Positions 8,583 through 29,854 of a DNA stretch of 35,838 bases are shown piece by piece. The notes below the pieces were generated by a model, which did no database searches, had not been told where the DNA came from, and was given only the letters and a program-made list of their open reading frames with translations. The number at the start of each line of letters is the position of its first letter. Positions within the stretch are counted from its first letter, which is position 1. The DNA is from an uncultured Jatrophihabitantaceae bacterium. Its GTDB lineage: Bacteria; Actinomycetota; Actinomycetes; Mycobacteriales; Jatrophihabitantaceae. Made by a program: the position numbers and the translations under genes. Where the stretch lies: assembly GCA_964245745.1 (NCBI GenBank), contig CAXTNQ010000009.1, forward strand, positions 1-35,838, read 5' to 3'.

Positions 8583-8659
8583 ACCGTCGATCCCACCATC
8601 TCGCCGGATGCCTCGCCAACCTGCGCCCGGCGGCCCGGGTCATCGCCACCCCCGCGCAC

Positions 8660-8689
8660 GGTGACCCGACCGCCACGGACGCTGTCACC
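8660..8689 (-). terminator. hairpin downstream of the SDR gene (weak terminator candidate)
   Basis: GGTGAC (8660-8665) and GTCACC (8684-8689) with inner CCG/CGG pairing. Located 23 nt past the operon's last stop codon. Confidence 0.25.
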
Positions 8690-8711
8690 TCTCGCGCGGC
8701 AGCGCCTCCGG

Positions 8712-9485
8712 CTATACGGGGGTGACGTAGGCCCCGCTGATACCTCCGTCGACCAGGAACGTCGACGCCGTGATGAACGACGCGTCGTCGCTGGCCAGGA
8801 AGGTCGCGGCGGCGGCGATCTCCTCGGCTTCGGCGAACCGTCCCATGGGGATGTGCACCATGCGCCGCGCCGCTCGTTCCGGGTCCTTCGCGAACAACTC
8901 GCGCAGCATGGGCGTGTTGACCGGCCCCGGACAGAGGGCGTTGACCCGGACGCCGTCGCGCGCGAACTGCACGCCGAGTTCGCGGCTCATGGCCAGGACG
9001 CCGCCCTTGCTGGCGGTGTAGGAGATTTGGGAGGTGGCCGACCCCATGACCGCGACGAAGGACGCCGTGTTGACGATCGAGCCTCCGCCACGCATCCGCA
9101 TCTGGCCGATCGCGTACTTGCAGCAGAGGTAGACGCTGGTCAGGTTGGCGTCCTGCACGCGTCGCCACGTCTCGAGGTCCGTCTGCAGGATCGAGTCGTC
9201 GTCGGGCGGCGATATGCCCGCGTTGTTGAACACGACGTCGAGGCCATCCAGTGTCTGCACCGCTGCGTCGAACAGGTCGCGTACCGCGCGCTCGTCGGTG
9301 ACGTCCACCGCCTGGAAGCCGGCACCGATTTCCGCCGCGGCCTTCGCGCCTGCTTCGGCGTCGATGTCGACGCACAGCACCTGCGCGCCTTCGTGGACGA
9401 AGCGCGACGCCGTCGCCCGGCCGATGCCGCTGGCCGAGCCCGTGACCACCGCGGCCTTGCCTGCTAGGCGGTCCCCCACACTCAC
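8712..9485 (-). CDS. short-chain dehydrogenase/reductase (SDR)
   Basis: VVTGSASGIGRA cofactor motif and YTASKGG (YxxxK). The GTG start overlaps the upstream stop (GTGA at 9482-9485). Confidence 0.85.
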   Translation of the reverse strand: MSVGDRLAGKAAVVTGSASGIGRATASRFVHEGAQVLCVDIDAEAGAKAAAEIGAGFQAVDVTDERAVRDLFDAAVQTLDGLDVVFNNAGISPPDDDSILQTDLETWRRVQDANLTSVYLCCKYAIGQMRMRGGGSIVNTASFVAVMGSATSQISYTASKGGVLAMSRELGVQFARDGVRVNALCPGPVNTPMLRELFAKDPERAARRMVHIPMGRFAEAEEIAAAATFLASDDASFITASTFLVDGGISGAYVTPV

Positions 9486-17917: not shown

Positions 17918-19453
17918 TCAGGACGCCAGAGCGCTGCGAATATCGTGCCCGACGGAGGTCAGACACTTGCCGTCGGTGAGCCGCCACTTCCACCCGTGCA
18001 TCTGGCAGGTCAGCACGTCACCTTCCACGGAGCCGAACCGCGACAGGTCCGCCTTCAGATGCGGGCAACGTCGCTGCACGTCCCAACCGTCGATCGTTAT
18101 CGACTCAGCGGCCTCGGCGGCGTTCTGCTCGGTGAACCAGCCCTCCGCATAGTTGAGCCGTTCCTCGGACAGGCACTTGAAGAACACGTAGACGAACTCG
18201 TTGTACGGGCCGACGCGTTGGGCAGAGAACCGGCAGGAGAGGAACAGCGAGTTCACCCAGTCGATCTCGTGCTCGGCGACCAGCTTCTCGAGGTAGGCGC
18301 GCCGCGTACGGAAGCGGTAGCGGACGTTTTCGTCCGTGTATTCACGGACCTCGCGGGCCACGAAGTCGATGAGTATGTCGACGTCACCCCGCGTGGCGTC
18401 CTCGGCGGTGAATCGCACGCCACCGTCGATGCCGGCCGCCACATGATCCGCTTCTTCGAGCAACGGCGTGAACCACTTGCCGAGCTCGGCCAGCAGATCG
18501 ATCTCGGGACGCGCCCACGTGGCCTTCTCGGCCTCGACCGCGGGCTGCTGGCGTCCCTGGTACCCCCGCAGATAGGCCGTCTTGTCCGCGAACACCCGAG
18601 CGGGATCGAAGGGATGCGTGACCAGGCACTCCTGCTCGACCGCGGCGACCGTACCGGGCAGCAGGAGCCGGCCTTCGTGGTGTCCATGCCCGGCCAGCCA
18701 GGAGAGGTATACCGACTGGTCCGGGAAGATGTTCGACTCGTCGCCGAAGATGTCGTTGAACCCCCACAGTTCCTCGTCCAGGAAGCACGGGGGACCCGCT
18801 GTCGGGAAGACGAAGCGCGCCCCGCACTCCTCGATGTAGCGCAGCGTGCGGTCGAACTGCCGTTCGCGCTTCTGGGCCCCGAGCGCCTGCTTGGCCCGCT
18901 TCGGTAGCTCGTACACCATCGGGAACCAGATGGCGCCGGAGAACTGCACGAGGTAGGAGTCGATCGGGCCGAGTGCGGTGAAGACGTTCAACGAGGACGG
19001 GCGAGCGTCGTTCTGGTTGAGCAGCCGCTGTTGTCCGTCGTACACCCACAGGGACGAGTCGCCGATCGGACCGTCGGTCGGGGAGACCAGCGACTGGATC
19101 ATGATGTGCAGCCCGTCGACCTCGACGATCTCCTCCGACTTCGGCGCTACGAAACGGTGAAACCCCAGGTCGCGCAGGGCGTCCTCGAGGTCGGACGGCG
19201 GGTTGTCGGGCTGGAGGACCGTGATGTCCTTATCGACGTAGCGGCGCAGGTGTTCGGGGTCGAAGTGATCATGATGAAGGTGGCTGACGAACAGGTAGTC
19301 GGCGCGGCCGTAGGCGTCCCAGTCCAACTGTGAGTTATCCGGAAACGGGAACCACGAGCCGAAGTACGCGGGGTTGACCCAGGGGTCGGTGAGGATGCTG
19401 CCGTGGGCGGTCTCGATCAGGACGCTGGCGTGGCCCAACCCGGTCAGTCGCAC
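17918..19453 (-). CDS. MBL-fold (metallo-beta-lactamase-like) / C-terminal Rieske [2Fe-2S] fusion protein
   Basis: Probable GTG start at 19453 (VRLTGLGHASVLIE...); the longer ORF would overlap the CHAT gene by 167 nt. HLHHDHFD metal motif. C-terminal Rieske ligands CPH...CQMH (RRCPHLKADL ... LTCQMHGWKW). Confidence 0.75.
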   Translation of the reverse strand: MRLTGLGHASVLIETAHGSILTDPWVNPAYFGSWFPFPDNSQLDWDAYGRADYLFVSHLHHDHFDPEHLRRYVDKDITVLQPDNPPSDLEDALRDLGFHRFVAPKSEEIVEVDGLHIMIQSLVSPTDGPIGDSSLWVYDGQQRLLNQNDARPSSLNVFTALGPIDSYLVQFSGAIWFPMVYELPKRAKQALGAQKRERQFDRTLRYIEECGARFVFPTAGPPCFLDEELWGFNDIFGDESNIFPDQSVYLSWLAGHGHHEGRLLLPGTVAAVEQECLVTHPFDPARVFADKTAYLRGYQGRQQPAVEAEKATWARPEIDLLAELGKWFTPLLEEADHVAAGIDGGVRFTAEDATRGDVDILIDFVAREVREYTDENVRYRFRTRRAYLEKLVAEHEIDWVNSLFLSCRFSAQRVGPYNEFVYVFFKCLSEERLNYAEGWFTEQNAAEAAESITIDGWDVQRRCPHLKADLSRFGSVEGDVLTCQMHGWKWRLTDGKCLTSVGHDIRSALAS

Positions 19454-19526
19454 CGGTCCACGGTAACGGCCGTTAGTCCGCCAACGGTGTTGACCCAGCG
19501 GACTCAGGCGAAGCGTGCGGCGCGCG

Positions 19527-22244
19527 TCATGAGGCTCGATCGCGAAGGAGCGGCGGGGCGAAGCCGGCGCCGAAGCACAGGAACCCGGCGGCCGTCGCGA
19601 TCCCGGCCGGCCCGGTGGCCGCCGTCTCGACCTGGGCGGCCGCCAGCGCGGCCGCGGGCGCCTCGCCGCGACCCAACCTCTCGTGCAGCGCATTCATCAG
19701 GGGACGGGTCTCGACGTCGAGGATTGGGAGCACCGACGCCACCAGTTGTGCACTCCCCTGGGCCAGCAACGTGGCCGTCAGCCCCAGCAGCTCGTCGCCC
19801 GACGGCACCACAGGACGACCGGAGTCGCAGGCGGCCACGACTACCGTGTGCGCGGCGCGGGGCAACCGCTCGAGGTCGTAGATCATCAGCGGCCCGTCGC
19901 TCAGCCGGATCGCGTCGAACTGCGGGTTGTCGGCTCGGACCCGCCCGTGCGCCGCGAGGTGAACGAGCGCGGCGCCGTCCATGGCCTGCAGGACCCGTCC
20001 CACCGTGGCGGCCCCGTCGGTCAACGCCGTGGCGTCGTGCCATCTGGCCACGTCGCGGGCTTCCTCGACCGCCGCCGGCAGGTCGGGGCCGGCGGCGACG
20101 ACGATCCGATCCGTGCCGGGCGCCCGCGACCGAGCGGCGTGCCACAACGTCGCCGACGGGCTTACCGTCACCGGACGTCCCGCACACGAGGGCAACGTCG
20201 ACCACGGGAGCCACTGCAGGCGTCCGGTCGGGACGATCACCAAGGACCGGTCGCCCAGCTCGGTGAGTGGGCAGATCATCAGCTGATCCAGTTCGCGTGC
20301 CGCCGCTTCGAGCAGCCGCCTCGCGGCCGTCAGCTCGGCCGGACGGGCTCGTCGACGGGCGAGGCGATGCAGCGCGAACGGCAACCGTTCGGCGAGCGAC
20401 GTCACGCGCGACACGGCGCCGAGTACGTGCAGGCGGGTGCGACCGTCCACGAGCGTCACCGCGTACAGGGTGTCGTCCAGGGCGACGTACTCGATCAGTG
20501 CCACATCGCCCAGGGCAGCGCGCAAACCGGAAACCGTGATCAAGGCCGCCGACTTGCCGCCCGCGACCCGCCGCCGGCGATACCGATCGCGGACGACGCG
20601 CTCGAGGTTGGCCTGCCGGGCCAGCAGAGTCGGGCTGGCTTCACCCTGGGCGCGCCGGTCCTCGACCTCGCGGATTACCGACCGCAGTTCGACGAGCCGT
20701 TCGGCGAGTTCAGGATCGTCGGGCGGCCGTCCGGGAGGCCGGGCCAGGTGGCTGGCGCGGCCCAGCTCCGCCCACGCCAGCACATCTCGGGCCGAGCCGT
20801 GCTCGATCGCGATGCGCGCGCCGAGGACGCTCAATTCGTTGCGGTGCGTCGCTACGTGAGCCCTGATGTCGGTCGCGCCGAGCACGGCGGCGTAGTCGTC
20901 GAGGATGCGTAGCCCGCGCCGGACCGCCCGCCGCGCGCCGGCGTCGTCGTCGTGCGCGCGGTGCAGCACGGCCGTGGCGTACCACGCTCGAGCGCGGACC
21001 GTCGCCGTGCCGTTCGTCCGGCTGCGGGCGGCCGCGCGCAGGAACCGTTCGGCGTCCGCCGGCCGACGACGCGTCAGGGCCGCCTCACCGGCTTGGATGC
21101 GGGCCTCGAGCGCGACGTGGGGCCACAGCCCGGAGGCGGCGGCGATGGTCTGCTCGAGGTGGCCGGTATCCGGCGCGCGTCCGGTGCCGACCAGGCGCAG
21201 CGTGATCACGATCAGGCGTGCGAGGGCCGCCAGCTGGCGTTGACCCTGGCGGTCCAGCTCCCGGGCGGCCGACCGAGCCTGGCCGAGGGCACCGTCCAGA
21301 TTGCCCTGCAACTGCCGCGTACGCGCCAGGATCAAGCGCGCTTCCGGCAGGATCGCGCCGCGTCCCTCGGTCAGACACGCCGCGACGGCACGTTCGGCGA
21401 CCTCGGACGCCTCGGCAATGAGTCGCGCCGAGAGCAAGAGCTCTGCCCGGTCGCGCAGTAACGGTCCGAGCTGAGCGCCGAGCTCGACGAAGCGGGCCCC
21501 GGCCCGGTCGAAGTACTCGAGGGCGGCCGGGATGTCGCCGCGCAGCACTTCGAGGTAGCCCAGGTTGTGGTCGACATGACCTTGGGAAAGCGCCGCGTCG
21601 GACTTCTCGAACAGCTCGCGCGCCTCCTGCAGGTCGGCGTCGGCGGCGCCGAAGCTCAGCAGGTGCGCGTGGGCGTTACCCCGGTTCATCAGCACCTTGC
21701 CGAGCCACACCGGGTCGTCCGCTTCGCGCAGCACCGCGATCGCCGCGCTGTAGTCCGGCACCGCCACCGCGATGCGCCCTTGCTGGTGCCGTACGACGCC
21801 ACGTAACGCGAGCGCGCGGGCGAGCTCCAGACCGTCGAGGACATCGACCGCTCGCCCGATCACGCGGACCGCCTCCGCTGATCGGCCGCGCCAGCTCAGC
21901 AGGTAGGCGAGGCTCATCCTGGCCTCGGCCTCGACCGTCGGCGAGCCGGCGCGGTGACCCCACCGGACCGCCTCTCGGGCCGCGCCCAAGGCAGCTTCGA
22001 CGTCGTCCAATTGGAACAACGCTAAGCCCTGCACCCGCGCGGCGATCGAATGCACGACAGCGTCCGACGTCGGCACCTGTAATGCGGTGGCCAGCTTGAG
22101 GGCGCGACGCGGGTCGGCGTCCACAAGGGTCAGGGCGTCACGCGCCTGCTGCTCCACGGACGTCGTCACGTACGGCCCTTCCCCTGCAGGTCGTTCACAG
22201 GCATTCTCCTGTATCAGGCGCGCCGACGCCTCCTCCTTGCCCAT
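19527..22244 (-). CDS. TPR-repeat protein with C-terminal CHAT (caspase-like) peptidase domain
   Basis: About 550 aa of helical TPR-like repeats, then a CHAT domain with a His/Cys dyad (ALVHLAAHGRV ... VVVAACDSGRP). No signal peptide or TM. Start is ATG 22244 (no SD) or GTG 22169 (preceded by GGGGAAGGG). Confidence 0.85.
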   Translation of the reverse strand: MGKEEASARLIQENACERPAGEGPYVTTSVEQQARDALTLVDADPRRALKLATALQVPTSDAVVHSIAARVQGLALFQLDDVEAALGAAREAVRWGHRAGSPTVEAEARMSLAYLLSWRGRSAEAVRVIGRAVDVLDGLELARALALRGVVRHQQGRIAVAVPDYSAAIAVLREADDPVWLGKVLMNRGNAHAHLLSFGAADADLQEARELFEKSDAALSQGHVDHNLGYLEVLRGDIPAALEYFDRAGARFVELGAQLGPLLRDRAELLLSARLIAEASEVAERAVAACLTEGRGAILPEARLILARTRQLQGNLDGALGQARSAARELDRQGQRQLAALARLIVITLRLVGTGRAPDTGHLEQTIAAASGLWPHVALEARIQAGEAALTRRRPADAERFLRAAARSRTNGTATVRARAWYATAVLHRAHDDDAGARRAVRRGLRILDDYAAVLGATDIRAHVATHRNELSVLGARIAIEHGSARDVLAWAELGRASHLARPPGRPPDDPELAERLVELRSVIREVEDRRAQGEASPTLLARQANLERVVRDRYRRRRVAGGKSAALITVSGLRAALGDVALIEYVALDDTLYAVTLVDGRTRLHVLGAVSRVTSLAERLPFALHRLARRRARPAELTAARRLLEAAARELDQLMICPLTELGDRSLVIVPTGRLQWLPWSTLPSCAGRPVTVSPSATLWHAARSRAPGTDRIVVAAGPDLPAAVEEARDVARWHDATALTDGAATVGRVLQAMDGAALVHLAAHGRVRADNPQFDAIRLSDGPLMIYDLERLPRAAHTVVVAACDSGRPVVPSGDELLGLTATLLAQGSAQLVASVLPILDVETRPLMNALHERLGRGEAPAAALAAAQVETAATGPAGIATAAGFLCFGAGFAPPLLRDRAS

Positions 22245-22284
22245 GCCGGAGGGATAAATCGCGACACTTGACCAGGAGACGGGC

Positions 22285-23619
22285 ATGGCCGAGACGACTC
22301 GACTCGCACTCGAGCACACCGACGACATCGTCGTCGCGCTGTCCCACTCCGACCTGGTCCTCGACGAGCTCGGACGGCTCGTCGAGATGGAGTTGCTTGC
22401 CGCGCCGCCTCACATGCGACACCACAGCGACCGCCTGGGCCTCGGCATGATCGAGCTGAAGTTCCGGCCTGATCCCGTCGTCACGTCGGCCGAAGGTGTG
22501 GCCGCGGTGTCGAGCTTCGGGGTCACCGAGGCGCTGGCCATGGTGCGCGAGTCGTGTCGGTACAAGTACCGCGGCTGGATGCCCACCATGGGCAAGAACC
22601 GAGTGGTCAGCGGCATCGCAGGTGAAGGTGGTTACCTGGCCGGAGGCGGTGGCTACCTCGCCGGCGGCGGTGGCTATCTAGCCGGAGGCGGCGGTTATCT
22701 CGCCGGCGGGGGTGGCTACCTGGCCGGAGGCGGCGGCTACCTCGCGGGTGGCGGCGGCTACCTGGCCGGTGGCGGCGGCTACCTCGCCGGAGGCGGCGGC
22801 GGCCTACCCGAACTCGCCGACCACGCACCCCGTCGTCCGCGCGGCGATCGTGGCCACGACGCGAAGATCGCGATCCTGGACGGTCCGATCTACCGCGGTA
22901 CGGCCGTGGCCGGCCACGTCGACTACGTCGGCAAGCAGCCGGCCAAGCGCGAGCCGATGCCGATGGGCGGTGGCCACGCCGTCTTCATCCTCGGCCTGGT
23001 GCAGGACGCGGCACCGGGGGCGCGGATCACCGTGCGACCGACGCTGGACCTGCATGCGGTGGCGACGGCGTGGGAGGTGGCCACCGCGATGGCCGACTGC
23101 GCCGACGGCGAAGTCGACGTCGTCAACCTCTCCCTCGGGTGCTACACGGTCGACAACGAGCCGCCGCTGCTGCTGCAGCGCGCCGTCGACCTGTTGAGCG
23201 CTCGCACGCTGGTCGTTGCCGCGGCCGGCAACCATCGCCAACCGCGTCACCCGCGCCCGTTCTGGCCCGCAGCGATGGAGAACGTCATCGCGGTCGGCGC
23301 TCGTGACGAGGACAACCGGCTCGCCACGTTCAGCCCACGCGCGCCGTGGGTCGACGTGACCGCGCCCGGCGTGCACGTGGTCAGCCAGTACCTCGACGGC
23401 AAGGTCGAGTTGGCGCCGCGCACCGAGCGCGACCCCGCGGAGATTGAGGAGTTTCCCGGCTACGCCCGGTGGCGCGGCACGTCGTTCGCGGCGGCCACGG
23501 TCACCGGCGAGATCGCCCGGCACATGACCGGCAAGCGCGACCCCCACAAGGCGCTCGAGCGCATGCTGGCGCAGCCGCACGAGGCCACGCCCGTCCGCCG
23601 CTACCACCACCACGCGTGA
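22285..23619 (+). CDS. cytoplasmic S8 (subtilisin-family) serine peptidase with about 112-aa N-terminal domain and (GGGGYLA)x8 linker
   Basis: ATG preceded by AGGAGA. Catalytic triad contexts AKIAILDG (Asp), GGGHAVFILG (His), GTSFAAATVTG (Ser); oxyanion AAAGNH. No signal peptide. Confidence 0.85.
   Translation: MAETTRLALEHTDDIVVALSHSDLVLDELGRLVEMELLAAPPHMRHHSDRLGLGMIELKFRPDPVVTSAEGVAAVSSFGVTEALAMVRESCRYKYRGWMPTMGKNRVVSGIAGEGGYLAGGGGYLAGGGGYLAGGGGYLAGGGGYLAGGGGYLAGGGGYLAGGGGYLAGGGGGLPELADHAPRRPRGDRGHDAKIAILDGPIYRGTAVAGHVDYVGKQPAKREPMPMGGGHAVFILGLVQDAAPGARITVRPTLDLHAVATAWEVATAMADCADGEVDVVNLSLGCYTVDNEPPLLLQRAVDLLSARTLVVAAAGNHRQPRHPRPFWPAAMENVIAVGARDEDNRLATFSPRAPWVDVTAPGVHVVSQYLDGKVELAPRTERDPAEIEEFPGYARWRGTSFAAATVTGEIARHMTGKRDPHKALERMLAQPHEATPVRRYHHHA
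22627..22803 (+). repeat. in-frame 21-bp tandem repeat x8 encoding GGGGYLA
   Basis: Tyr codons fall at 22633 plus 21n (n=0-7). Peptide units are identical, while codons vary synonymously (Tyr TAC/TAT, Leu CTG/CTC/CTA, Ala GCC/GCG, Gly GGT/GGC/GGA/GGG). Confidence 0.95.
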
Positions 23620-23624
23620 CACCG

Positions 23625-24221
23625 ATGCACGACGACCCGACCGTCATCACCCTCGTCCGCCGGGCGCAGGGTGGTGAGCAAGCCGCGTGGGACGAGATCG
23701 TCGAACGGTTCGCTCCTCTCGTGTGGGGCATCTGCCGGCGGTTTCGGCTCGCAGACACCGACGCGCACGACGTCGGTCAGAACGTCTGGCTACGACTGGT
23801 CGAGCACCTGGACAAGCTGCGCGAGCCGGCGGCGTTGCCGGGCTGGATCGCCACGACCACCCGTCGTGAATGCATTCGCGCGCAGCGGGCAGCGTGGGAT
23901 CACGAGCGCGAACAGATCGAGCCGGACGCCCAGGTTGCGGCCGACGAGGAATCCACGCAGGTCGACCAGTGGCTACTGGCGGACGAGCGGGACTCGGTGA
24001 TCCGGGCCGCGTTCGCGCAGTTGCAACCGCGCTGCCAACAATTGCTGGCGCTGTTGATGAAGGATCCGCCGCCGGCGTACACGGAGATCAGCACATCCCT
24101 GCACATGCCGGTCGGAGCGATCGGGCCGAACCGCGCCCGCTGCCTGGACAAACTGCGGCGCAGTCCCTTGCTGGCCGCGTTCATCGACAGCCGCTCCCCC
24201 GCGGCGGGAATGGGTCTGTGA
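23625..24221 (+). CDS. ECF-type sigma-70 family RNA polymerase sigma factor
   Basis: ATG lies 5 nt after the S8 stop. Region 2 (FAPLVWGICRRFRLADTDAHDVGQNVWLRLVEH) and region 4 HTH (YTEISTSLHMPVGAIGPNRARCLDKLR). Confidence 0.9.
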   Translation: MHDDPTVITLVRRAQGGEQAAWDEIVERFAPLVWGICRRFRLADTDAHDVGQNVWLRLVEHLDKLREPAALPGWIATTTRRECIRAQRAAWDHEREQIEPDAQVAADEESTQVDQWLLADERDSVIRAAFAQLQPRCQQLLALLMKDPPPAYTEISTSLHMPVGAIGPNRARCLDKLRRSPLLAAFIDSRSPAAGMGL

Positions 24222-24222
24222 C

Positions 24223-24675
24223 GTGACCGAGAACTGGTGGAGCGACGACGACACGTTCGCCGCTGCGGTGGCGACGGCCCTCACGCCCGTCCCCGAGAGC
24301 TTCGTCGGGGCGGCCAAGGCGGTGTTCACTTGGCACAACATCGACGCCGAGCTGGCTGCGCTGGTGTACGACTCCGCGCAGGACGCGCTGGCCGCGGCCG
24401 GCACACGAGCCGAACCGGCCTCGCTGCGCTCGCTGACCTTCGACGCCCAGCACGTCACCATCGAGCTCGAGATCATCGACGACGTACTGCACGGCCAGCT
24501 GGTGCCGGCCACCTCAGGGCAGATCGAGGTCCGTCCACTGCGGGGCGATCCGACCACGGTCGACGTCGACGATGTCGGGTACTTCACGGTGACCCCGCTG
24601 CCGCAGGGCCGGTTCCGGCTCTACTGCCAGCCCGCCGACGGCGAGGCCGTGCTGACCGACTGGATCACCCTGTAA
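24223..24675 (+). CDS. 150-aa soluble protein translationally coupled to the ECF sigma (candidate non-canonical anti-sigma/partner)
   Basis: GTG lies 1 nt after the sigma stop (TGA-C-GTG). N-terminal helix FTWHNIDAELAALVYDS. The C-terminal half is beta-rich (GYFTVTPLPQGRFRLYC). No HxxxCxxC motif and no TM. Confidence 0.6.
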   Translation: MTENWWSDDDTFAAAVATALTPVPESFVGAAKAVFTWHNIDAELAALVYDSAQDALAAAGTRAEPASLRSLTFDAQHVTIELEIIDDVLHGQLVPATSGQIEVRPLRGDPTTVDVDDVGYFTVTPLPQGRFRLYCQPADGEAVLTDWITL

Positions 24676-24679
24676 CGCG

Positions 24680-27112
24680 TCACATCCGCACCCGGGTACC
24701 CCGCGGGTCGTAGAGCGGCTCGGCGCTGACCGTCGCCGCGATCCACATGCCGAACAGGTCGACCTCCACGCGGGTGCCCGGTGTCGTGCACTCGACGGGC
24801 AGATAGCCGTAGGCGATGGACGCGCGCAGCGTGTACCCGAAGCCGCCGGAGGTCACCCGGCCGGCGATATCGCGGCCGACTCGGATCGGTTCGCCGCCGA
24901 GCACCACCTGGCGCGGATCGTCGAGCACGAGACACGCGAGCCGGCGCGACACGTCCCGGGTGAGCGCGTCCCGGCCGGCGAAGCCACCGGGCTTGTCGAG
25001 CTTGACGCAGAACCCCAGCTTGGCCTCGTAGGGCGTGGTCTCGGGCGTGACGTCGGTGCTCCACACCCGGTAGCCCTTCTCCAGCCGGAGGCTCTCTATC
25101 GCCCGGTAGCCGCCCGCGCACAGCCCCACGCGTTCACCGGCCGACCACACGGTCTGCCACAGCGCGGCGCCGTAGTCGGGCGGCGCGTACAGCTCCCAGC
25201 CGAGCTCGCCGACGTAGGTCACGCGTAGCGCCTGCACGGGCACGGCCCCGATCGTGAGCGCCTGCGCGGTCATGAACGGGAAGGCGTCGTCCGACAGGTC
25301 GGCAGGAGTCAGTGGAGCCAGGACGTCACGGGCCTGCGGCCCCCACACGGCGTAACAGACCCATTGCCCGGTGACGTCGGTGAGGCGTACGCCGGCGTCG
25401 ATCCGTCGGGCCTGACGCCGCAACCAGGCCAGATCGTGAGATCCGAACGCGGTACCGGTGACGATGAAGAACTCGTCGTCGGCGACCCGGGTGACCGTGA
25501 AGTCGGCCTCGATCCCACCACGGTCGTTGAGCGCCTGAGCGTAGGTGACGGTGCCGACCCGGCGCGCCACTCGGTTGTCGCACACCCAATCCAGGAACGC
25601 GGCCGCGTCGGCGCCGGTCACCGCGATCTTGGCGAACGACGACTCGTCGAAGATCGCGGCCCGTTCGCGGGTCGCACGGTGCTCGGTCTCGACCGCAGGC
25701 GACCAGTTGCGTCCGGCCCAGCCGTGCGGACGAGTCGTGGCGTCGCCCGCATTGGCGTTCGTGACGTAGTAGTTGACGCGCTCCCACGCCGCCTTCTCGC
25801 CGAACACCGCGCCGTGCGCGGCATGCCAGCCGTACACCGGCGACCGCCGCAGCGGACGTCCCGCCTGCCGTTCGTCGCCCGGATAGCGGATGTCGTAGTA
25901 GGTCTCGTAGCTTTCGACCGTGCGCGCCAGCGTGTACGCCGGTGACTGGTACACCGTGCCGAAGCGATTGACGTCCATGTGCCAGACGTCGGCGTCCGGA
26001 CGCCCGTCCAGGATCCAATCCGCCATGAGCCGGCCGACACCTCCGGCCCCGGCGATTCCGTGCGCGCAGAAGCCGGCCGCTACGAAGAATCCGGCCACGG
26101 CGGTTTCGCCGAGACAGAACTCGTTGTCGGGCGTGAAGGCCTCCGGGCCGTTGATCAACCGGCGGACACCCACGTCCGCGAGCGCCGGCACCCGGCGTTG
26201 CGCGTTCTCGGCGATCTGCTCGAAGCGCGGCCAGTCCTCGGCGAGTAGGCGGCCGTTGAAGTCGGCGGGGACGTCGTCGTAGGACGTGGCCGAGACCTGC
26301 CACGGTGCAGACGTGCGTTCGTAGCCGCCCATGACGAGCCCGTTCACCTCGGTGCGGAAGTAGACCAAGTGGTCCGGATCGCGCAGAGTCGGCAGCGCGT
26401 CGGGCGTAGACCGGAACCCTTCAGTGACGACGTACTGGTGCGCCATGGGGACGATCGGCACGCGGACGCCGACCAGCCGGGCCACGTGGGCCGCGTACAT
26501 GCCCGCGCAGTCGACGACCACCTCGCATTCGACGTCGCCGCGGTCGGTCCGGACCCGTCGTACTCGCTGGCCTTCGACGTCGATCGCAGTGACGCGGGTG
26601 TGCGCGGCGATACGCACGCCGGCCGCTCGAGCAGCGGTGGCCAGCGCGTAGCACAGCTGTGACGGGTCGAGATAGCCGTCCGTGGGCAGGTAGGCGGCAC
26701 CGAGCACTCCGTCGGGCGACATCAGTGGGAACAGGTCCTGCGCCTCGCGCGCGGAGATCTCCTCGAGCGGCAAGCCGACACTGCGCGCCCAGCTGATCTG
26801 GCGACGGATCTCGGCGAGTCGCTCCGGGCTGGACGCGAGCCGTAGGCCGCCGCACTCGGTCCAGCCGACCGCGGCGCCGAATTCGCGGTACAGCGCCACC
26901 GAGTACATGTTCATGCGCGTTAGCGTGGGGTCGGCGCGCAATTGGCCGACGAGGCCTGCGGAGTGGAACGTCGATCCGCTGGTCAGCTCGTCACGTTCGA
27001 CCACGAGGACATCGCGCTCGCCGCGCAACGCCAGGTGGTAGGCCACGCTCGCGCCGCCTACGCCTCCCCCGATCACCACCACGCGCGACGCGGCAGGCAG
27101 ATCGTCGGCCAT
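24680..27112 (-). CDS. FAD-dependent oxidoreductase fused to GcvT-type aminomethyltransferase (sarcosine/dimethylglycine dehydrogenase-oxidase family)
   Basis: ATG 27112 preceded by GGAGG. VVVIGGGVGGASVAYHLA dinucleotide fold. The C-terminal roughly 380 aa is a GcvT-like folate-binding domain (YVGELGWELY). Confidence 0.85.
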   Translation of the reverse strand: MADDLPAASRVVVIGGGVGGASVAYHLALRGERDVLVVERDELTSGSTFHSAGLVGQLRADPTLTRMNMYSVALYREFGAAVGWTECGGLRLASSPERLAEIRRQISWARSVGLPLEEISAREAQDLFPLMSPDGVLGAAYLPTDGYLDPSQLCYALATAARAAGVRIAAHTRVTAIDVEGQRVRRVRTDRGDVECEVVVDCAGMYAAHVARLVGVRVPIVPMAHQYVVTEGFRSTPDALPTLRDPDHLVYFRTEVNGLVMGGYERTSAPWQVSATSYDDVPADFNGRLLAEDWPRFEQIAENAQRRVPALADVGVRRLINGPEAFTPDNEFCLGETAVAGFFVAAGFCAHGIAGAGGVGRLMADWILDGRPDADVWHMDVNRFGTVYQSPAYTLARTVESYETYYDIRYPGDERQAGRPLRRSPVYGWHAAHGAVFGEKAAWERVNYYVTNANAGDATTRPHGWAGRNWSPAVETEHRATRERAAIFDESSFAKIAVTGADAAAFLDWVCDNRVARRVGTVTYAQALNDRGGIEADFTVTRVADDEFFIVTGTAFGSHDLAWLRRQARRIDAGVRLTDVTGQWVCYAVWGPQARDVLAPLTPADLSDDAFPFMTAQALTIGAVPVQALRVTYVGELGWELYAPPDYGAALWQTVWSAGERVGLCAGGYRAIESLRLEKGYRVWSTDVTPETTPYEAKLGFCVKLDKPGGFAGRDALTRDVSRRLACLVLDDPRQVVLGGEPIRVGRDIAGRVTSGGFGYTLRASIAYGYLPVECTTPGTRVEVDLFGMWIAATVSAEPLYDPRGTRVRM

Positions 27113-27159
27113 CGGCCTCCTCGGTGGCGGATGACACCCCGTTTGCGACCCTCCGATGT

Positions 27160-27242
27160 TAAAGGCATGGGACAAGTCGCCCCCCTCCCGCGAGAGCGGG
27201 AGTTCGCGGCGAGAGCCGCGACCGGGCGACTAAAGGCATGGG
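27160..27242. repeat. 12-bp direct repeat TAAAGGCATGGG (27160-27171 and 27231-27242) flanking twin hairpins
   Basis: Exact 12-mer duplicated 71 bp apart in an otherwise GC-rich divergent intergenic region. CCGTTTG(C)GACC also occurs twice (about 27139 and 27250). Confidence 0.8.
27185..27221 (+). promoter_or_regulatory. two adjacent 7-bp hairpins, each closed by a GAGA (GNRA) tetraloop, in the leader of the kinase/permease operon
   Basis: CTCCCGC-GAGA-GCGGGAG (27185-27202) and TCGCGGC-GAGA-GCCGCGA (27204-27221). The loops are GNRA only on the plus strand. CCCTCCC (27183-27189) is complementary to GGGAGGG in the SD (27302-27308). Confidence 0.4.
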
Positions 27243-27314
27243 GGCTAGACCGTTTGACCAGAGCGGCTCTAGCATCCCGACATCCGCCCAGTGGACTGCG
27301 AGGGAGGGAGCAGC

Positions 27315-28226
27315 GTGCCGGCCGCGTGTGACGCCATCGACGAGCTCGAGGCCGCGTTGACCGGCGTGCCGGCGCTGGCTGGGCGGCAGCAGGTGTCCCC
27401 GTTGCCGGGCGGCCTGACCAACCACAACTACCGCGTCACGACCCCCGACGGGGATTACGTCGCGCGCGTCGCCTCGGCGAGCAGCGCGCTGATGGGCATC
27501 GACCGGGCCGCTGAGCACCGGAACGCACAACTCGCGGCTGGAGTCGGTGCCGGTCCGCGCGTCGTCGCGTATCGCCCTGGACTGCTGGTCATCGACTGGC
27601 TGGACGGCCGCACCCTCACCTCCCGCGACCTGCGCGAACCCGCCGTGCTCGACCGCGTCGTAACGGTAGTGCGGCGGTTACACGCGGCACCGCGCTTTCG
27701 CGGCGAGTTCGACATGTTCGCCATTCAACGGCGTTACCTGACGCTCGTCCGAGCGCGAGGGTTCCGGCTGCCGCCGCGGTATCTCGACTACGTCGAACGG
27801 GCCGAGCAGGTGGCTCGCGCGCTGGCCGTGCGTCCAGTCGCTCGCGTCTCGTGCCACAACGATCTGTTGGCTAGCAACTTCATCGACGACGGCGCTCGGG
27901 TGTGGATCATCGACTACGAGTATGCGGGCAACAACGATCCCGCGTTCGAGCTCGGCAATCTGTGGAGCGAAGCGGCGTTGCCCGTCGACGCGTTGCCGGC
28001 CATCGTCGGCCGCTACCACGGACGCGTCACGAACGCCGACCTCGCCCGGGCTCGGCTCTGGGGACTGGCCGCGCAGTACGCGTGGACGTTGTGGGCGTCC
28101 ATCCAGGACGCGCAGAGCGACATCGAGTTCGACTTCTGGACATGGGGCATGGCCAAGTACGACCGGGCCGTGGCAGAGTTCGACGGCCCGGACCTACCTG
28201 CACTGTTGACCGATGTGACGAGCTGA
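27315..28226 (+). CDS. choline/ethanolamine kinase-type phosphotransferase (APH fold)
   Basis: GTG 27315 lies 4 nt after AGGGAGGGAG. Brenner/kinase motifs HNDLLASNF and WIIDYEYAGNNDPAFELGN. Confidence 0.8.
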   Translation: MPAACDAIDELEAALTGVPALAGRQQVSPLPGGLTNHNYRVTTPDGDYVARVASASSALMGIDRAAEHRNAQLAAGVGAGPRVVAYRPGLLVIDWLDGRTLTSRDLREPAVLDRVVTVVRRLHAAPRFRGEFDMFAIQRRYLTLVRARGFRLPPRYLDYVERAEQVARALAVRPVARVSCHNDLLASNFIDDGARVWIIDYEYAGNNDPAFELGNLWSEAALPVDALPAIVGRYHGRVTNADLARARLWGLAAQYAWTLWASIQDAQSDIEFDFWTWGMAKYDRAVAEFDGPDLPALLTDVTS

Positions 28227-28237
28227 AGGGGAAGCCC

Positions 28238-29854
28238 GTGCCTGAAGCAACGCTCCTGAACGAGGACGAACAGCGACTGGCCGAACTCGGCTACAAGCAG
28301 GAGCTGCACCGTTCGTGGTCCGGCTTCTCGAACTTCGCGATCTCGTTCTCGATCATTTCGATCCTGGCCGGCTGCTTCACGACCTTCGGCGTCGGCTGGA
28401 ACAACGGTGGTCCCGCCGCGATCGCCTGGGGCTGGCCGATCGTGTCGATCTTCATTCTGATCATCGGCCTGTGCATGTCCGAGTTGGTGTCCGCCTTCCC
28501 GACCTCGGGCGGCATCTACTGGTGGGCGTCGAAGCTGGGCGGCCCGAAAGCCGGCTACTACACCGGCTGGCTCAACCTCATCGGACTCTTGGCCATCGAC
28601 GCGTCCGTGGCGTACGGCTGTGCGACGTTCTTCGACCTCATGCTCGGCACGTTCAGTACGTCCTGGGCCGACGGATACAGCCTCAAGCGAGTGTTCCTGA
28701 TCTTCATCGTCGTGCTCGTGCTCGTCGCCCTGGTCAACATCTTCTCGAGCCACCTGCTGGCCGTACTCAACAACATCTCGGTCTGGTGGCACGTGCTCGG
28801 CGCAGCCGCGGTCGTCGGCATCCTGCTGTTCGTGCCGAGCCACCACGCCAGCGCGGCGGCAGTGTTCACGCACACCGTGAACAACACCGGACTGTTCGGC
28901 AGTAACACGCACGGAGCCGGATTCATCCTGTACGTGCTGCCACTGTCGGCGATCCTCACCCAGTACACGATCACCGGTTACGACGCCTCGGCTCACTTGT
29001 CGGAAGAGACCCGTAGTGCCGCCAATTCCGCGGCCAAGGGCATCTGGCGGTCGATCTTCTACTCCGCCATCGGCGGCTGGATCCTGCTACTTGCGTTCCT
29101 GTTCGCGGTGCAGGACGAGGGCGGCGTCACCAAGGGCGGTGGCGGCGTCGCGGTGATCTTCAGCCAGGCGCTCACCTCGCGCTGGGCCGGCACGGTTCTA
29201 CTCATCTCGGCCGCGGGTCAGTTCTTCTGCACGGTGGCCTGCATGACGAGCACGACCCGCATGCTCTACGCGTTCAGCCGCGACCGCGCGGTCCCCGGCG
29301 CCCAGTACTGGTCACGGCTCAACCGCAACCGCGTTCCCGTCTTCGGCGTGATCGCCGCCGCAGTCGTCGCCATCCTCCTCACCCTGCCCGCGCTGGTCGA
29401 GGTCAACATCAACGGCGCCCCGGTACCCGTGGCGTTCTTCGCGGTCGTGTCCATCGGAGTGGTCGGGCTGTACGTCGCCTTCGCCGTGCCGATCTTCCTG
29501 CGGTGGCGCGCCGGGTCGCGTTTCCAACCTGGAGGCTGGACGCTCGGCACGAAGTACAAGTGGATGTGCGTCGTGGCCGTCGTGGAGATCGCCATCACGT
29601 CGATCATTGCGCTGCTGCCGACGTCCAACCTGGGACTGCCGTGGAACGACGGGTTCGGTTGGCGCTACGTGAACTACACGATCCTCGTGGTACCAGGAGC
29701 CTTGCTGCTGCTGTGGATCGCGTGGCACGTGTCGGTCAAGCACTGGTTCCACGGCCCGCGTACCACTGTCGACCTGCCGCTCGGCGTCTCGGCCGCGGAC
29801 GAGATTGCCGGCGAGCGTCACCACCACGGGGACCCCGAGCCCGCGGCCACCTAG
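28238..29854 (+). CDS. APC-superfamily amino acid/choline/ethanolamine-type permease
   Basis: GTG 28238 after GAAGGGGAAG. About 12 predicted TM segments. N-terminal motif YKQELHRSWSGFSNFAISFSIISILAG ... SELVSAFPTSGGIYWW. Confidence 0.9.
   Translation: MPEATLLNEDEQRLAELGYKQELHRSWSGFSNFAISFSIISILAGCFTTFGVGWNNGGPAAIAWGWPIVSIFILIIGLCMSELVSAFPTSGGIYWWASKLGGPKAGYYTGWLNLIGLLAIDASVAYGCATFFDLMLGTFSTSWADGYSLKRVFLIFIVVLVLVALVNIFSSHLLAVLNNISVWWHVLGAAAVVGILLFVPSHHASAAAVFTHTVNNTGLFGSNTHGAGFILYVLPLSAILTQYTITGYDASAHLSEETRSAANSAAKGIWRSIFYSAIGGWILLLAFLFAVQDEGGVTKGGGGVAVIFSQALTSRWAGTVLLISAAGQFFCTVACMTSTTRMLYAFSRDRAVPGAQYWSRLNRNRVPVFGVIAAAVVAILLTLPALVEVNINGAPVPVAFFAVVSIGVVGLYVAFAVPIFLRWRAGSRFQPGGWTLGTKYKWMCVVAVVEIAITSIIALLPTSNLGLPWNDGFGWRYVNYTILVVPGALLLLWIAWHVSVKHWFHGPRTTVDLPLGVSAADEIAGERHHHGDPEPAAT

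What the first reader, a model, noticed from the sequence alone, without database searches (positions are those of the whole stretch)
19527..24675. Cytoplasmic two-protease / ECF sigma module: TPR-CHAT divergent from an S8-subtilase, sigma and partner operon
**Seen in the sequence**
- A roughly 900-aa TPR protein ends in a CHAT caspase-like domain with the His/Cys dyad intact (HLAAHG, AACDSG).
- It is transcribed divergently from a tight operon, 40-115 bp away depending on which start is used.
- Operon gene 1 is an S8 subtilase with an intact Asp/His/Ser triad.
- Operon gene 2 is an ECF sigma factor, 5 nt downstream.
- Operon gene 3 is a 150-aa protein, 1 nt downstream.
- None of the four proteins has a signal peptide or TM helix, so both proteases are predicted to be intracellular.
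- No recognisable anti-sigma factor (ZAS or TM type) is present.

**Established knowledge**
- CHAT/TPR proteins and intracellular subtilases are recurrent effectors in bacterial conflict and programmed-cell-death-like systems.
- ECF sigmas are normally held by a cognate anti-sigma, which is often released by proteolysis.

**Inference**
- This may be a proteolytic switch in which one or both proteases process the sigma partner, or each other, to release the sigma factor.
- Alternatively, the sigma factor may drive expression of a protease-based suicide or defence effector.
- I do not know of a characterised system with this composition.
Basis: partly seen in the sequence, partly recalled or inferred. 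Interest (0 to 1): 0.82.

Follow-up and report, generated by a model that had tools for sequence, protein, structure and literature searches.

The report
Sigma factor, partner and two proteases
This is a real four-gene module conserved across soil actinobacteria: a caspase-like protease, an intracellular pro-subtilisin, a stress-type (ECF) sigma factor and an uncharacterised 150-aa partner. Its gene association is already noted in the sigma-factor literature, but nobody has worked out how it functions.

Summary

**Adjacency is not chance.**
- The sigma gene sits directly upstream of the 150-aa gene in 76 of 80 related loci. The two genes usually overlap.
- A CHAT/S8 protease pair lies within about 8 kb in 37 of 51 loci with full flanks, in three different arrangements.

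**The module is not unrecorded.** Reviews of ECF sigma factors describe group ECF54 as having no anti-sigma factor and neighbours with carboxypeptidase, subtilase and CHAT domains. Characterised analogues also exist: Craspase Csx29–Csx30–sigma, SAVED-CHAT→PCaspase, and CalpL/T/S.

**New here.**
- The 150-aa protein belongs to a large family with no Pfam model (2,765 clusters). It has N-terminal helices and an Ig-like domain, and is the likely missing sigma regulator.
- An ECF-type promoter, GTATCA-N17-CTCYG, precedes the sigma operon and the S8 gene but never the CHAT gene. The window copy is at 22210–22236.
- S8 resembles an unprocessed pro-subtilisin. Its propeptide junction motif is amplified 8 times here and 1–8 times in relatives.
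- The protease pair is swapped or deleted as a unit, while sigma and its partner stay unchanged.

**Best model (inferred).** An autoregulated sigma/partner switch induces a zymogen protease, and TPR-CHAT acts as the initiator.

The parts
19527..22244 (-). TPR-CHAT protease gene. The start is uncertain: ATG 22244 or GTG 22169. The longest ORF reaches 22328 and would overlap the S8 start.
   Evidence: Pfam CHAT plus weak TPR hits. Homologue alignments begin at residues 36-66 of the long ORF.
19620..20306 (-). CHAT (caspase-like) domain. The catalytic His794 codon is 19947-19949 and the Cys834 codon is 19827-19829.
   Evidence: Pfam E 5.8e-31. H794 and C834 are 100 % conserved in 55 homologues.
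22210..22236 (+). ECF-type promoter-like motif TGTATCAG-N-CTCC. The -35 element is GTATCA, followed by a 17-nt spacer and a -10 element CTCC. It points at S8-sigma-P150, about 50 nt upstream of the S8 ATG.
   Evidence: This is the only match in the window, where 0.12 are expected. The same motif occurs upstream of sigma or S8 in relatives, with 107 matches against 6.9 in shuffles.
22285..23619 (+). Intracellular pro-subtilase (S8) gene, first gene of the operon.
   Evidence: Pfam Peptidase_S8. The triad D199/H231/S400 and N316 are invariant. AF2 model pLDDT 83.
22285..22620 (+). S8 N-terminal propeptide-like domain (residues 1-112), ending in the invariant G103-K104-N105.
   Evidence: AF2 pLDDT is above 90 for residues 14-109. 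The best Foldseek matches are unprocessed pro-subtilisins aligned over about 450 columns. GKN is invariant.
22624..22800 (+). Tandem 21-bp / heptad repeat encoding EGGYLAG + (GGGYLAG)x7 at the propeptide-catalytic domain junction.
   Evidence: TRF period 21, 8.0 copies, 83 % matches. Copy number is 1-8 in homologues. The segment is disordered in AF2, pLDDT about 27.
23625..24221 (+). ECF sigma factor gene (198 aa), 5 nt after the S8 stop.
   Evidence: Sigma70_r2. TIGR02937 scores 69.8 bits, above its cut-off.
24223..24675 (+). 150-aa sigma partner ('P150'), 1 nt after the sigma stop. It has N-terminal helices (residues 9-45) with the invariant motif W37 / D41-A-E-L-A45 / D50-S51, and a C-terminal Ig-like beta-sandwich (residues 70-150).
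   Evidence: 393 homologues, none with a Pfam hit. 2,765 representative clusters. Alignment and AF2 model. Weak CarboxypepD_reg hits in 11 of 20 members. Adjacent to sigma in 76 of 80 loci. The genes overlap or lie within 12 nt in 74 of 77 loci.

Best explanation
**Regulatory core.** The sigma factor and its translationally coupled 150-aa partner (P150) form the core. P150 is most likely the missing cognate regulator. In this reading its N-terminal helices hold the sigma factor like an anti-sigma, and its C-terminal Ig-like domain is the input or docking surface.

**Promoter and regulon.**
- When free, the sigma factor would recognise a GTATCA-N17-CTCYG promoter.
- That promoter precedes its own operon (positive autoregulation) and the S8 gene.
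- In this window a single copy at 22210-22236 would drive S8, sigma and P150 together.

**S8.**
- S8 is made in the cytoplasm as an inactive zymogen with a subtilisin-type propeptide.
- The junction motif (aromatic/His, then an aliphatic residue, then Gly-rich) that would dock in or be cut at the active site has been amplified 8 times here.

**TPR-CHAT.**
- This gene is transcribed divergently and lacks the sigma-type promoter. It is inherited together with S8 as a cassette.
- I infer that it is the constitutively present, TPR-gated initiator protease. It would process pro-S8, P150 or both.
- A stimulus would then give a self-amplifying burst of sigma activity and intracellular proteolysis. 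The likely output is growth arrest, cell death or defence.

**Shown computationally:** the gene content, the synteny, the promoter distribution, the pro-enzyme architecture and the cassette behaviour.

**Inferred:** sigma-P150 binding, which protease cuts what, and the physiological output.
For: **Sigma-P150 coupling**
- Sigma is directly upstream of P150 in 76 of 80 loci.
- The sigma stop and P150 start overlap in 57 of 77 loci and lie within 12 nt in 17 more.
- The P150 N-terminal region is the most invariant block (W37, DAELA, DS). AF2 nevertheless gives it low confidence as a monomer (pLDDT below 50 for residues 35-66). That is typical of a segment that folds on a partner.

**Promoter**
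- The motif was found de novo upstream of sigma.
- The spacer is fixed at 17 nt in 57 of 74 instances.
- There are 107 matches against a mean of 6.9 in dinucleotide shuffles.
- A PWM trained only on sigma-upstream sites scores at least 12 bits toward S8 in 34 of 43 divergent regions and toward CHAT in 0 of 43.
- The window site is at 22210-22236.
- Loci retrieved through S8 also carry the motif before S8 (L082, L084).

**S8 as a zymogen**
- The best structural matches are unprocessed pro-Tk-subtilisin, ProN-Tk-SP and pro-subtilisin E, aligned over about 450 columns.
- The catalytic residues are invariant.

**CHAT/S8 as a unit**
- The two genes are always found together, in two co-varying lineages.
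- The pair was replaced in L002 at the same site, with sigma 89 % and P150 73 % identical to the window.
- The pair was deleted in L003, L009 and L013, leaving an S8 remnant and the promoter.

**Precedents for protease-to-sigma logic and CHAT-initiated cascades**
- PMC10028731 and bioRxiv 10.1101/2023.06.23.546230.
Against: - No direct evidence that P150 binds sigma. A complex prediction could not be run.
- P150 has no sequence or solved-structure relative among known anti-sigma factors.
- That this sigma factor recognises the motif is assumed from position and ECF-like architecture, not shown.
- Sigma and P150 persist without any protease pair in 14 of 51 loci with full flanks, and they do not co-vary with the protease lineage. 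The proteases are therefore not needed for sigma-P150 to be maintained, which weakens any obligatory CHAT-to-P150 step.
- In L017 and L022 the sigma gene is absent while P150 stays next to S8.
- The window's -10 element (CTCCTT) departs from the CTCCG consensus.
- A defence or cell-death role is not supported by the window's neighbours, which are metabolic genes.
- No relatives were found on phage or viral contigs.
Confidence: 0.4

Rival explanations
1. **Protease-gated release (Craspase or DegS/RseA logic).** P150 is an anti-sigma whose only role is to be cut by TPR-CHAT and/or S8 after a signal. The proteases act strictly upstream of sigma, and S8 is not an output.
For: - Characterised precedents exist. 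TPR-CHAT Csx29 cleaves the sigma inhibitor Csx30 (PMC10028731). CalpL cleaves CalpT to release CalpS.
- CHAT lacks the sigma-type promoter, so it could be present before induction.
- P150 has a poorly conserved, variable-length linker (about residues 52-68), with pLDDT below 50 up to residue 66.
- P150 stays beside S8 even where sigma is missing (L017, L022).
Against: - S8 carries the sigma-type promoter in about 80 % of loci, including those where it is physically separate from the sigma operon. It is therefore downstream of sigma at least transcriptionally.
- Sigma and P150 are maintained without the proteases (14 of 51 loci; deletion remnants).
- Sigma and P150 are unchanged when the protease pair is exchanged.
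Confidence: 0.25
2. **Published ECF54 proposal.** The proteases degrade the sigma factor itself. This keeps it off, or, with S8 under sigma control, forms a negative-feedback pulse generator. P150 is an accessory protein, not an anti-sigma.
For: - This is the proposal in the review of non-canonical ECFs (PMC8999054 section 3.3; its table lists ECF54 under 'Proteolysis').
- S8 lies in the same autoregulated operon, which would make a coherent negative loop.
Against: - It does not explain the near-universal, translationally coupled P150.
- It does not explain the zymogen architecture with an amplified junction motif.
- No experiments exist for any member.
Confidence: 0.15
3. **Two independent modules that merely travel together.** Sigma-P150 is a self-contained regulatory pair. 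CHAT-S8 is an unrelated two-protease cassette that tends to insert next to it.
For: - Sigma-P150 occurs alone.
- The protease cassette is exchanged or lost with no change in sigma/P150 similarity.
Against: - Adjacency is kept in three different gene orders across several actinobacterial families.
- All three look-ups that started from S8 returned the full four-gene set.
- S8 carries the same promoter motif as the sigma operon.
Confidence: 0.08
4. **S8 is an ordinary exported or maturation subtilase.** Examples would be a mycosin, a lanthipeptide or quinohemoprotein maturation protease, or a nutritional protease, with no link to the sigma factor.
For: - Weak NCBIfam similarity to mycosin (80 bits) and QhpE (69.6 bits).
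- Some sources name homologues 'membrane-anchored mycosin'.
Against: - Both scores are far below the curated cut-offs of 278.75 and 165.
- No signal peptide or TM anchor was found.
- No T7SS, precursor-peptide or biosynthetic genes lie nearby.
Confidence: 0.03

Closest known systems
ECF sigma group ECF54 and its conserved neighbourhood (Huang et al. 2015; Casas-Pastor et al. 2021; review PMC8999054)
   Same: - An actinobacterial ECF sigma with no recognisable anti-sigma factor.
- Neighbours with subtilase and CHAT domains and a 'carboxypeptidase' domain. P150 homologues give weak CarboxypepD_reg hits.
- Regulation by proteolysis has been proposed.
   Different: - Membership of this sigma in ECF54 could not be verified with the ECF Hub models.
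- The 2021 paper stresses a neighbouring 4Fe-4S protein, which I did not see in these loci.
- The literature gives no role for the +1 protein. The summaries I could read give no promoter and no experiments.
Type III-E CRISPR 'Craspase': Cas7-11-Csx29 (TPR-CHAT), Csx30, Csx31, CASP-sigma (PMC10028731)
   Same: - A TPR-CHAT protease encoded with an ECF sigma factor and small uncharacterised partners.
- The protease cleaves the sigma inhibitor.
- The sigma factor has target promoters inside its own locus.
   Different: - No Cas7-11, crRNA or CRISPR context here.
- No detectable sequence similarity of the window's TPR-CHAT or P150 to any solved chain, Csx29 and Csx30 included.
- A second protease (S8) is present.
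- The partner is 150 aa with an Ig-like domain.
Type III-B SAVED-CHAT -> PCaspase cascade with PCc-sigma and PCi (Haliangium ochraceum; bioRxiv 10.1101/2023.06.23.546230)
   Same: - A CHAT protease, a second protease made as an inactive precursor, a sigma factor and a small protein, all encoded together.
- The CHAT protease activates the second protease.
   Different: - The sensor here is a TPR array, not SAVED/cA3.
- The second protease is a pro-subtilase, not a caspase.
- There is no CRISPR or CBASS link.
- In that system the sigma factor is a protease substrate. Here S8 appears to be a sigma target.
CalpL-CalpT-CalpS and DegS/RseP-RseA-RpoE
   Same: - Release of an ECF sigma factor by cleavage of its anti-sigma factor.
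   Different: - Different protease families (Lon-SAVED; PDZ serine protease and site-2 protease).
- RseA is membrane-bound, whereas all four proteins here look cytoplasmic.
Pro-subtilisins with an N-terminal (I9-type) propeptide, e.g. pro-Tk-subtilisin 2e1p, ProN-Tk-SP 3afg, pro-subtilisin E 3whi
   Same: - Predicted fold and relative placement of the N-domain and the catalytic domain.
- An intact D/H/S triad.
   Different: - No signal peptide.
- No sequence-level match to a propeptide family.
- A 56-residue Gly-rich heptad array is inserted at the junction, with copy number varying from 1 to 8 among relatives.

Membership tests
ECF (group IV) sigma-70 factors | Sigma-2 and sigma-4 regions only, with a score above the family cut-off | tested here: met
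   TIGR02937 sigma70-ECF scores 69.8 bits against a 42.9 cut-off. Pfam Sigma70_r2 E 1.6e-12. The protein is 198 aa.
ECF54 group | Assignment by the ECF Hub group HMM, or clustering with reference members such as SFT86700.1 from Geodermatophilus amargosae | not testable with these tools
No Geodermatophilus entry appears among the top 120 of 3,237 sigma homologues.
ECF54 group | Actinobacterial, with no canonical anti-sigma factor and neighbours carrying subtilase, CHAT and carboxypeptidase-type domains | tested here: met
   Relatives are all Actinomycetota. S8 and CHAT are adjacent. P150 homologues give weak CarboxypepD_reg hits in 11 of 20 members. No ZAS or TM anti-sigma factor is present. 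The group description comes from PMC8999054.
ECF54 group | A neighbouring protein with a 4Fe-4S cluster (Casas-Pastor 2021) | tested here: not met
   No Fer4-type domain appears in the window's neighbours or in the annotated contexts L081-L084. Only a Rieske 2Fe-2S protein lies upstream.
Peptidase S8 (subtilases) | An Asp-His-Ser triad in that order plus an oxyanion-hole Asn | tested here: met
   D199, H231, S400 and N316 are invariant in 42 sequences.
Pro-subtilisin zymogens | An N-terminal propeptide domain packed on the catalytic domain | tested here: inconclusive
   The AF2 model matches unprocessed pro-subtilisins best by Foldseek. There is no sequence match to a propeptide family, and rmsd is 4.7-7.6 A. 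Inhibition and processing were not tested.
CHAT / clan CD caspase-like peptidases | A catalytic His-Gly ... Cys dyad within a CHAT domain | tested here: met
   Pfam CHAT E 5.8e-31. H794-G795 and C834 are 100 % conserved in 55 homologues.
Type III-E Craspase (Csx29/Csx30/CASP-sigma) | Association with Cas7-11 and crRNA, and homology to Csx29 and Csx30 | tested here: not met
   No cas genes are among the annotated neighbours. No PDB sequence match for TPR-CHAT or P150.
SAVED-CHAT / CalpL type cyclic-oligonucleotide-gated proteases | A SAVED sensor domain fused to the protease | tested here: not met
   Only TPR and CHAT hits were found in the 933-aa protein.
Class I anti-sigma factors (ASD / ZAS) | An anti-sigma domain detectable by sequence, with an HxxxCxxC zinc motif for the ZAS type | tested here: not met
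   No zf-HC2, RskA or other anti-sigma family matches even at E up to 1. The only invariant Cys is C135, in the Ig-like domain. This lowers the claim 'is a known anti-sigma', not the claim 'acts as one'.
T7SS mycosins | A score above the TIGR03921 cut-off, a signal peptide and a C-terminal TM anchor | tested here: not met
   80 bits against a 278.75 cut-off. No hydrophobic leader or anchor was found.

The most novel reading that the evidence does not exclude
P150 would found a new, very large class of soluble anti-sigma factors, with short sigma-binding helices and an Ig-like sensor or docking domain. That would solve the 'no regulator' status of ECF54-type sigma factors. The exchangeable TPR-CHAT/pro-subtilase pair would be a CRISPR-independent, caspase-like proteolytic cascade under sigma control. 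In it, the initiator CHAT protease cuts a tandemly amplified junction motif to fire an intracellular executioner subtilase. This would be an actinobacterial counterpart of the Craspase and SAVED-CHAT/PCaspase abortive-response pathways.
Probability: 0.3. Interest if true: 0.75.

Novelty: new member of a known kind. Interest (0 to 1): 0.55.

Why it matters
ECF54-type sigma factors are among the few ECF groups still listed without any regulator, and no member has been studied experimentally.

This analysis turns the vague idea of 'regulated by neighbouring proteases' into specific hypotheses that can be tested cheaply:
- **A named candidate regulator.** P150 belongs to a family of 2,765 clusters at 50 % identity with no Pfam model.
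- **A defined promoter and a minimal regulon.** The regulon comprises the sigma operon, the pro-subtilase and a few lineage-specific genes.
- **A likely processing site.** This is the amplified junction motif in S8.

If the cascade model holds, it would show that CHAT-initiated protease cascades coupled to sigma factors also exist as stand-alone chromosomal modules in Actinomycetota, outside CRISPR and CBASS loci.

Cultured hosts carry the module: Nonomuraea gerenzanensis and Amycolatopsis sp. cg5.

Tried and rejected
- **Sigma-P150 complex prediction.** I tried a linker fusion of the two proteins.
- **Natural sigma-P150 fusions.** None appear among the best 150 representatives.
- **P150 against solved structures.** The profile search found nothing (best E 0.11). 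Foldseek on the model found only generic Ig-like folds (E at least 0.01).
- **TPR-CHAT against PDB sequences.** Only weak generic TPR hits were found (best E 0.07), and no match to any CHAT protease, Csx29 included.
- **PADLOC defence models.** Only a generic subtilase hit was returned. Nothing matched CHAT, sigma or P150.
- **ECF54 membership.**
  - Huang et al. 2015 (PMC4518836) is not held.
  - The supplements of Casas-Pastor 2021 are not held.
  - The sigma homologue list did not surface the reference member.
- **Mobile-element origin.** No P150 relative was found in phage records or viral contigs. The one 'plasmid' hit is the Nonomuraea chromosome, mis-filed.
- **Sigma-70-type promoters and terminators.** Scans around the divergent region and the CHAT 3' end found nothing.
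- **Chance adjacency.** Rejected on synteny.
- **Mycosin or maturation-protease readings.** Rejected on scores and on the absence of export signals.

Full report
**1. Observation**

*TPR-CHAT*
- The minus-strand ORF 19527..22328 carries a CHAT domain at residues 675-903 (E 5.8e-31) after weak TPR matches.
- His794 (HLAAHG) and Cys834 (AACDSG) are invariant in 55 homologues that are as little as 37 % identical.
- The start may be ATG 22244 or GTG 22169. These lie 40 nt and 115 nt from the S8 ATG at 22285.

*S8*
- S8 (22285..23619) has D199, H231, S400 and the oxyanion N316 invariant in 42 homologues.

*Sigma*
- The sigma gene starts at ATG 23625, 5 nt after the S8 stop.
- It passes the ECF model cut-off (69.8 bits against 42.9).

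*The 150-aa protein (P150)*
- The 150-aa ORF starts at GTG 24223, 1 nt after the sigma stop.
- It has no hit in Pfam, NCBIfam or PADLOC.

*Localisation*
- A crude hydropathy check finds no leader or TM segment in any of the four proteins.

- S8 residues 114-169 are a tandem heptad array, EGGYLAG + (GGGYLAG)x7.
- The array is encoded by 21-bp units that are only 83 % alike at the DNA level.

**2. Is the adjacency real?**

*Starting from P150*
- P150 has 393 homologues at 90 % clustering. All are about 150-160 aa and unannotated.
- A profile search finds 2,765 representative clusters at E up to 1e-3.
- Scanning one genome per species found 229 relatives, and the best 80 loci were fetched. All come from Actinomycetota: Streptosporangiaceae, Jatrophihabitantaceae, Micromonosporaceae, Mycobacteriales and Amycolatopsis.
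- Sigma is immediately upstream of P150 in 76 of 80 loci. Two of the four exceptions are contig ends.
- The sigma stop and the P150 start overlap in 57 of 77 loci and lie within 12 nt in 17 more.

*The protease pair*

Of the 51 loci with full flanks, 37 have both CHAT and S8 within about 8 kb:

| Arrangement | Gene order | Loci |
|---|---|---|
| A (window type) | CHAT(-)<>S8(+)-sigma-P150 | 9 |
| B | sigma-P150, then a convergent CHAT(-)<>S8(+) pair | 25 |
| C | S8-CHAT-sigma-P150 | 1 |
| Other | | 2 |
| D | no CHAT or S8 within the flanks | 14 |

*Starting from S8*
- Three look-ups that began from S8 homologues all returned CHAT(-)<>S8-sigma-~150 aa.
- One of these is the complete genome of Amycolatopsis sp. 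cg5.
- Nonomuraea gerenzanensis also has the module.

Chance adjacency is excluded.

**3. What the parts are**

*P150*
- AF2 (pLDDT 71.5) gives three short N-terminal helices and a confident seven-strand Ig-like sandwich at residues 70-150.
- Foldseek finds only generic Ig-like folds.
- Eleven of 20 homologues give weak CarboxypepD_reg hits. This probably explains the 'carboxypeptidase' in published ECF54 neighbourhood descriptions. That link is my inference.
- The most invariant block (W37, D41-A-E-L-A45, D50-S51) falls in the part modelled with the lowest confidence. That is expected for a segment that folds on a partner.

*S8*
- AF2 (pLDDT 83, pTM 0.84) models a confident N-domain (residues 14-109), a disordered repeat and a canonical catalytic domain.
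- The best PDB matches are unprocessed pro-subtilisins aligned over about 450 columns. Mature subtilisins align over about 250 columns.
- The N-domain ends in W-x-P-x-h-G-K-N-R, with GKN invariant.
- A junction motif follows. It is single in many relatives (FPYVGGGG, LPHIDGG, SPHVGGGG).
- In the window's closer relatives the motif is amplified 1-8 times as GGGQVSG, GGGFLSG, GGGFLAG, GGGYLGG or GGGYLAG.
- A second S8 lineage, found in most arrangement-B loci and in L002, has a different N-domain with the motif ATPNHVLTV...CPATEPE.

*CHAT and S8 lineages*
- The two co-vary. CHAT is 46-51 % identical to the window's where S8 is of the window's lineage. It is 32-38 % identical where S8 is of the other lineage.

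**4. A shared ECF-type promoter**

*Discovery and statistics*
- Dyad counting on the 200 nt upstream of sigma, in loci where sigma is the first gene, gave YGTATCA(G)-N-CTCYG.
- The spacer between GTATC and CTCY is 17 nt in 57 of 74 instances and 18 nt in 15.
- There are 107 matches in the 81 sequences, against a mean of 6.9 in dinucleotide shuffles.
- The layout resembles ECF promoters (compare GGAAC-N16/17-TCTGA for RpoE, from my own knowledge).

*Where it occurs*
- It occurs before sigma and before S8, in both arrangement A and arrangement B.
- A PWM trained only on sigma-upstream sites scores at least 12 bits toward S8 in 34 of 43 CHAT<>S8 divergent regions, and toward CHAT in none.
- The window has exactly one match, 22210-22236 on the plus strand, where 0.12 are expected. 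It lies about 50 nt before the S8 ATG.
- S8-sigma-P150 is therefore probably one autoregulated operon.
- The site lies inside the long version of the CHAT ORF. This favours the downstream CHAT starts.

*Other genes behind the motif*

These are lineage-specific:
- DO-GTPase2 in Amycolatopsis.
- An APH-like kinase.
- A Cys-rich small protein.
- A 214-aa protein of unknown function.

**5. Cassette behaviour**

| Locus | Flanks | CHAT | S8 | Sigma | P150 |
|---|---|---|---|---|---|
| L082 (close relative) | same as window (Rv3818-like; DAO/GCV_T) | window lineage | window lineage, 69 % | 88 % | 75 % |
| L002 | same as window | other lineage, 33 % | other lineage, 36 % | 89 % | 73 % |

- The figures are identities to the window's proteins.
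- L003, L009 and L013 keep the flank, the promoter and sigma-P150. They have lost CHAT. They retain only an in-frame S8 remnant, with the N-terminal ~30-70 residues (depending on the locus) joined to the C-terminal ~20-35.
- L017 and L022 keep CHAT, S8 and P150 but lack the sigma gene.

Sigma-P150 is therefore the stable core. CHAT-S8 is a co-inherited, replaceable and losable pair.

**6. Mechanism**

The model I consider most likely has these parts. Each is an inference unless marked otherwise.
- P150 is the cognate sigma regulator.
- The sigma factor autoregulates and induces pro-S8. The promoter distribution supporting this is shown computationally.
- TPR-CHAT lacks the sigma-type promoter and always travels with S8. 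It is the signal-gated initiator that processes pro-S8 at the junction motif, P150, or both.
- The output is a burst of sigma activity and intracellular proteolysis.

The main rivals are listed below:
- Pure protease-gated release of sigma.
- The published idea that the proteases degrade sigma itself.
- Functional independence of the two gene pairs.
- An ordinary exported subtilase.

The window gives no evidence for a defence or cell-death role. Its neighbours are metabolic: LigD, P450, aldehyde dehydrogenase, a GlnA-like gene, and choline/dimethylglycine catabolism genes. No relatives occur on phage or viral contigs. Some related loci sit beside TIR_2, Imm1, PIN or IS genes, but this is anecdotal.

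**7. Comparison with what is known**

*ECF54*
- A 2022 review states that ECF54 sigma factors lack an anti-sigma factor.
- It says they have conserved neighbours with carboxypeptidase, subtilase and CHAT domains, and it lists them under 'Proteolysis'.
- Casas-Pastor et al. 2021 list ECF54 among groups without a regulator and mention a 4Fe-4S neighbour. I did not see such a neighbour here.
- I could not run the ECF Hub models, so membership rests on context only.

*Experimentally characterised analogues*
- Craspase. TPR-CHAT Csx29 cleaves the sigma inhibitor Csx30, and CASP-sigma has targets in its own locus.
- SAVED-CHAT to PCaspase. A CHAT protease activates a second protease. A sigma factor and a small inhibitor are encoded between the two protease genes.
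- CalpL/T/S.
- Kaur et al. 2021 also note caspase systems coupled to ECF sigma factors and TPR proteins.

No sequence relationship to any solved chain, these systems' components included, was detected.

**8. Verdict**

- The claim of an unrecorded composition is not right.
- The locus is a new member of a described but experimentally untouched kind.
- Four features appear not to be in the literature I could read, and they make the system directly testable:
  - the P150 family as candidate regulator;
  - the promoter and regulon;
  - the zymogen with an amplified junction motif;
  - the cassette dynamics.

Noticed in passing
window 22624-22800 (S8 residues 114-169): A heptad repeat, EGGYLAG + (GGGYLAG)x7, sits at the propeptide/catalytic junction. 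The DNA units are only 83 % alike while the peptide units are identical. Homologues carry 1-8 copies of variant units (GGGQVSG, GGGFLSG, GGGFLAG, GGGYLGG). Its function is unknown. I suspect it is an amplified processing or pseudo-substrate site.
   Followed up: partly
L028 8477-8560, and the equivalent sites in L033, L037, L042, L044, L049, L050, L053 and L062: A second copy of the sigma-type promoter motif lies 36-140 nt after the P150 stop. It points straight into a conserved 12-bp GC hairpin with 3 compensatory pairs, often followed by a T-run. No ORF follows on that strand, and the next gene is convergent. It could be a tiny hairpin RNA, an antisense start or a sigma decoy site. It remains unexplained.
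   Followed up: partly
L003 ~7200-7350, L009 ~7100-7350, L013 ~7000-7290: The S8 gene is reduced to a short in-frame remnant (N-terminal ~30-70 residues, depending on the locus, joined to the C-terminal ~20-35). CHAT is absent, while the promoter motif, sigma and P150 are intact. This shows recent loss of the protease pair.
   Followed up: yes
L017 7751-8001 and L022 (same position): The sigma gene is missing between S8 and P150. CHAT, S8 and an intact P150 with all N-terminal invariant residues remain.
   Followed up: partly
L002 3181-7205 compared with window 19527-23619: At the same chromosomal site and with the same flanks, the CHAT/S8 pair belongs to a different lineage (33 % and 36 % identity). 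Sigma and P150 are 89 % and 73 % identical. This looks like a cassette replacement.
   Followed up: yes
L082 4239-6932 and 9679-11272: In a close relative with the same flanks, CHAT is split into five frame-shifted pieces. This is either a pseudogene or long-read assembly error. An ISL3 transposase and a PIN-domain gene are inserted between P150 and the DAO/GCV_T gene.
   Followed up: no
L083 9702-10994 (Amycolatopsis sp. cg5) and L061 ~10311: The sigma-type promoter motif precedes a DO-GTPase2 (PF19993) gene next to the module. In other lineages the genes behind the motif are an APH-like kinase, a Cys-rich 110-170 aa protein divergent from sigma, and a 214-aa protein of unknown function.
   Followed up: partly
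window 17918-19693 (-): An Rv3818-like protein (metallo-beta-lactamase fold, SCP2-like and Rieske domains) lies directly downstream of CHAT on the same strand. Its longest ORF overlaps the CHAT 3' end by about 166 nt, so its true start is probably further downstream. The same gene flanks the module in L002, L007, L008, L011 and L082.
   Followed up: no
window 24680-29854: A DAO/GCV_T dehydrogenase (dimethylglycine/sarcosine type) converges on P150, with only 4 nt between the stop codons. A choline kinase/APH gene and an amino-acid permease follow. Together they look like a choline/glycine-betaine catabolic cluster unrelated to the module.
   Followed up: no
window 7738-9732 (-): A 664-aa ORF with no Pfam hit at E up to 1e-5. 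It may be a spurious high-GC ORF or an unannotated gene.
   Followed up: no
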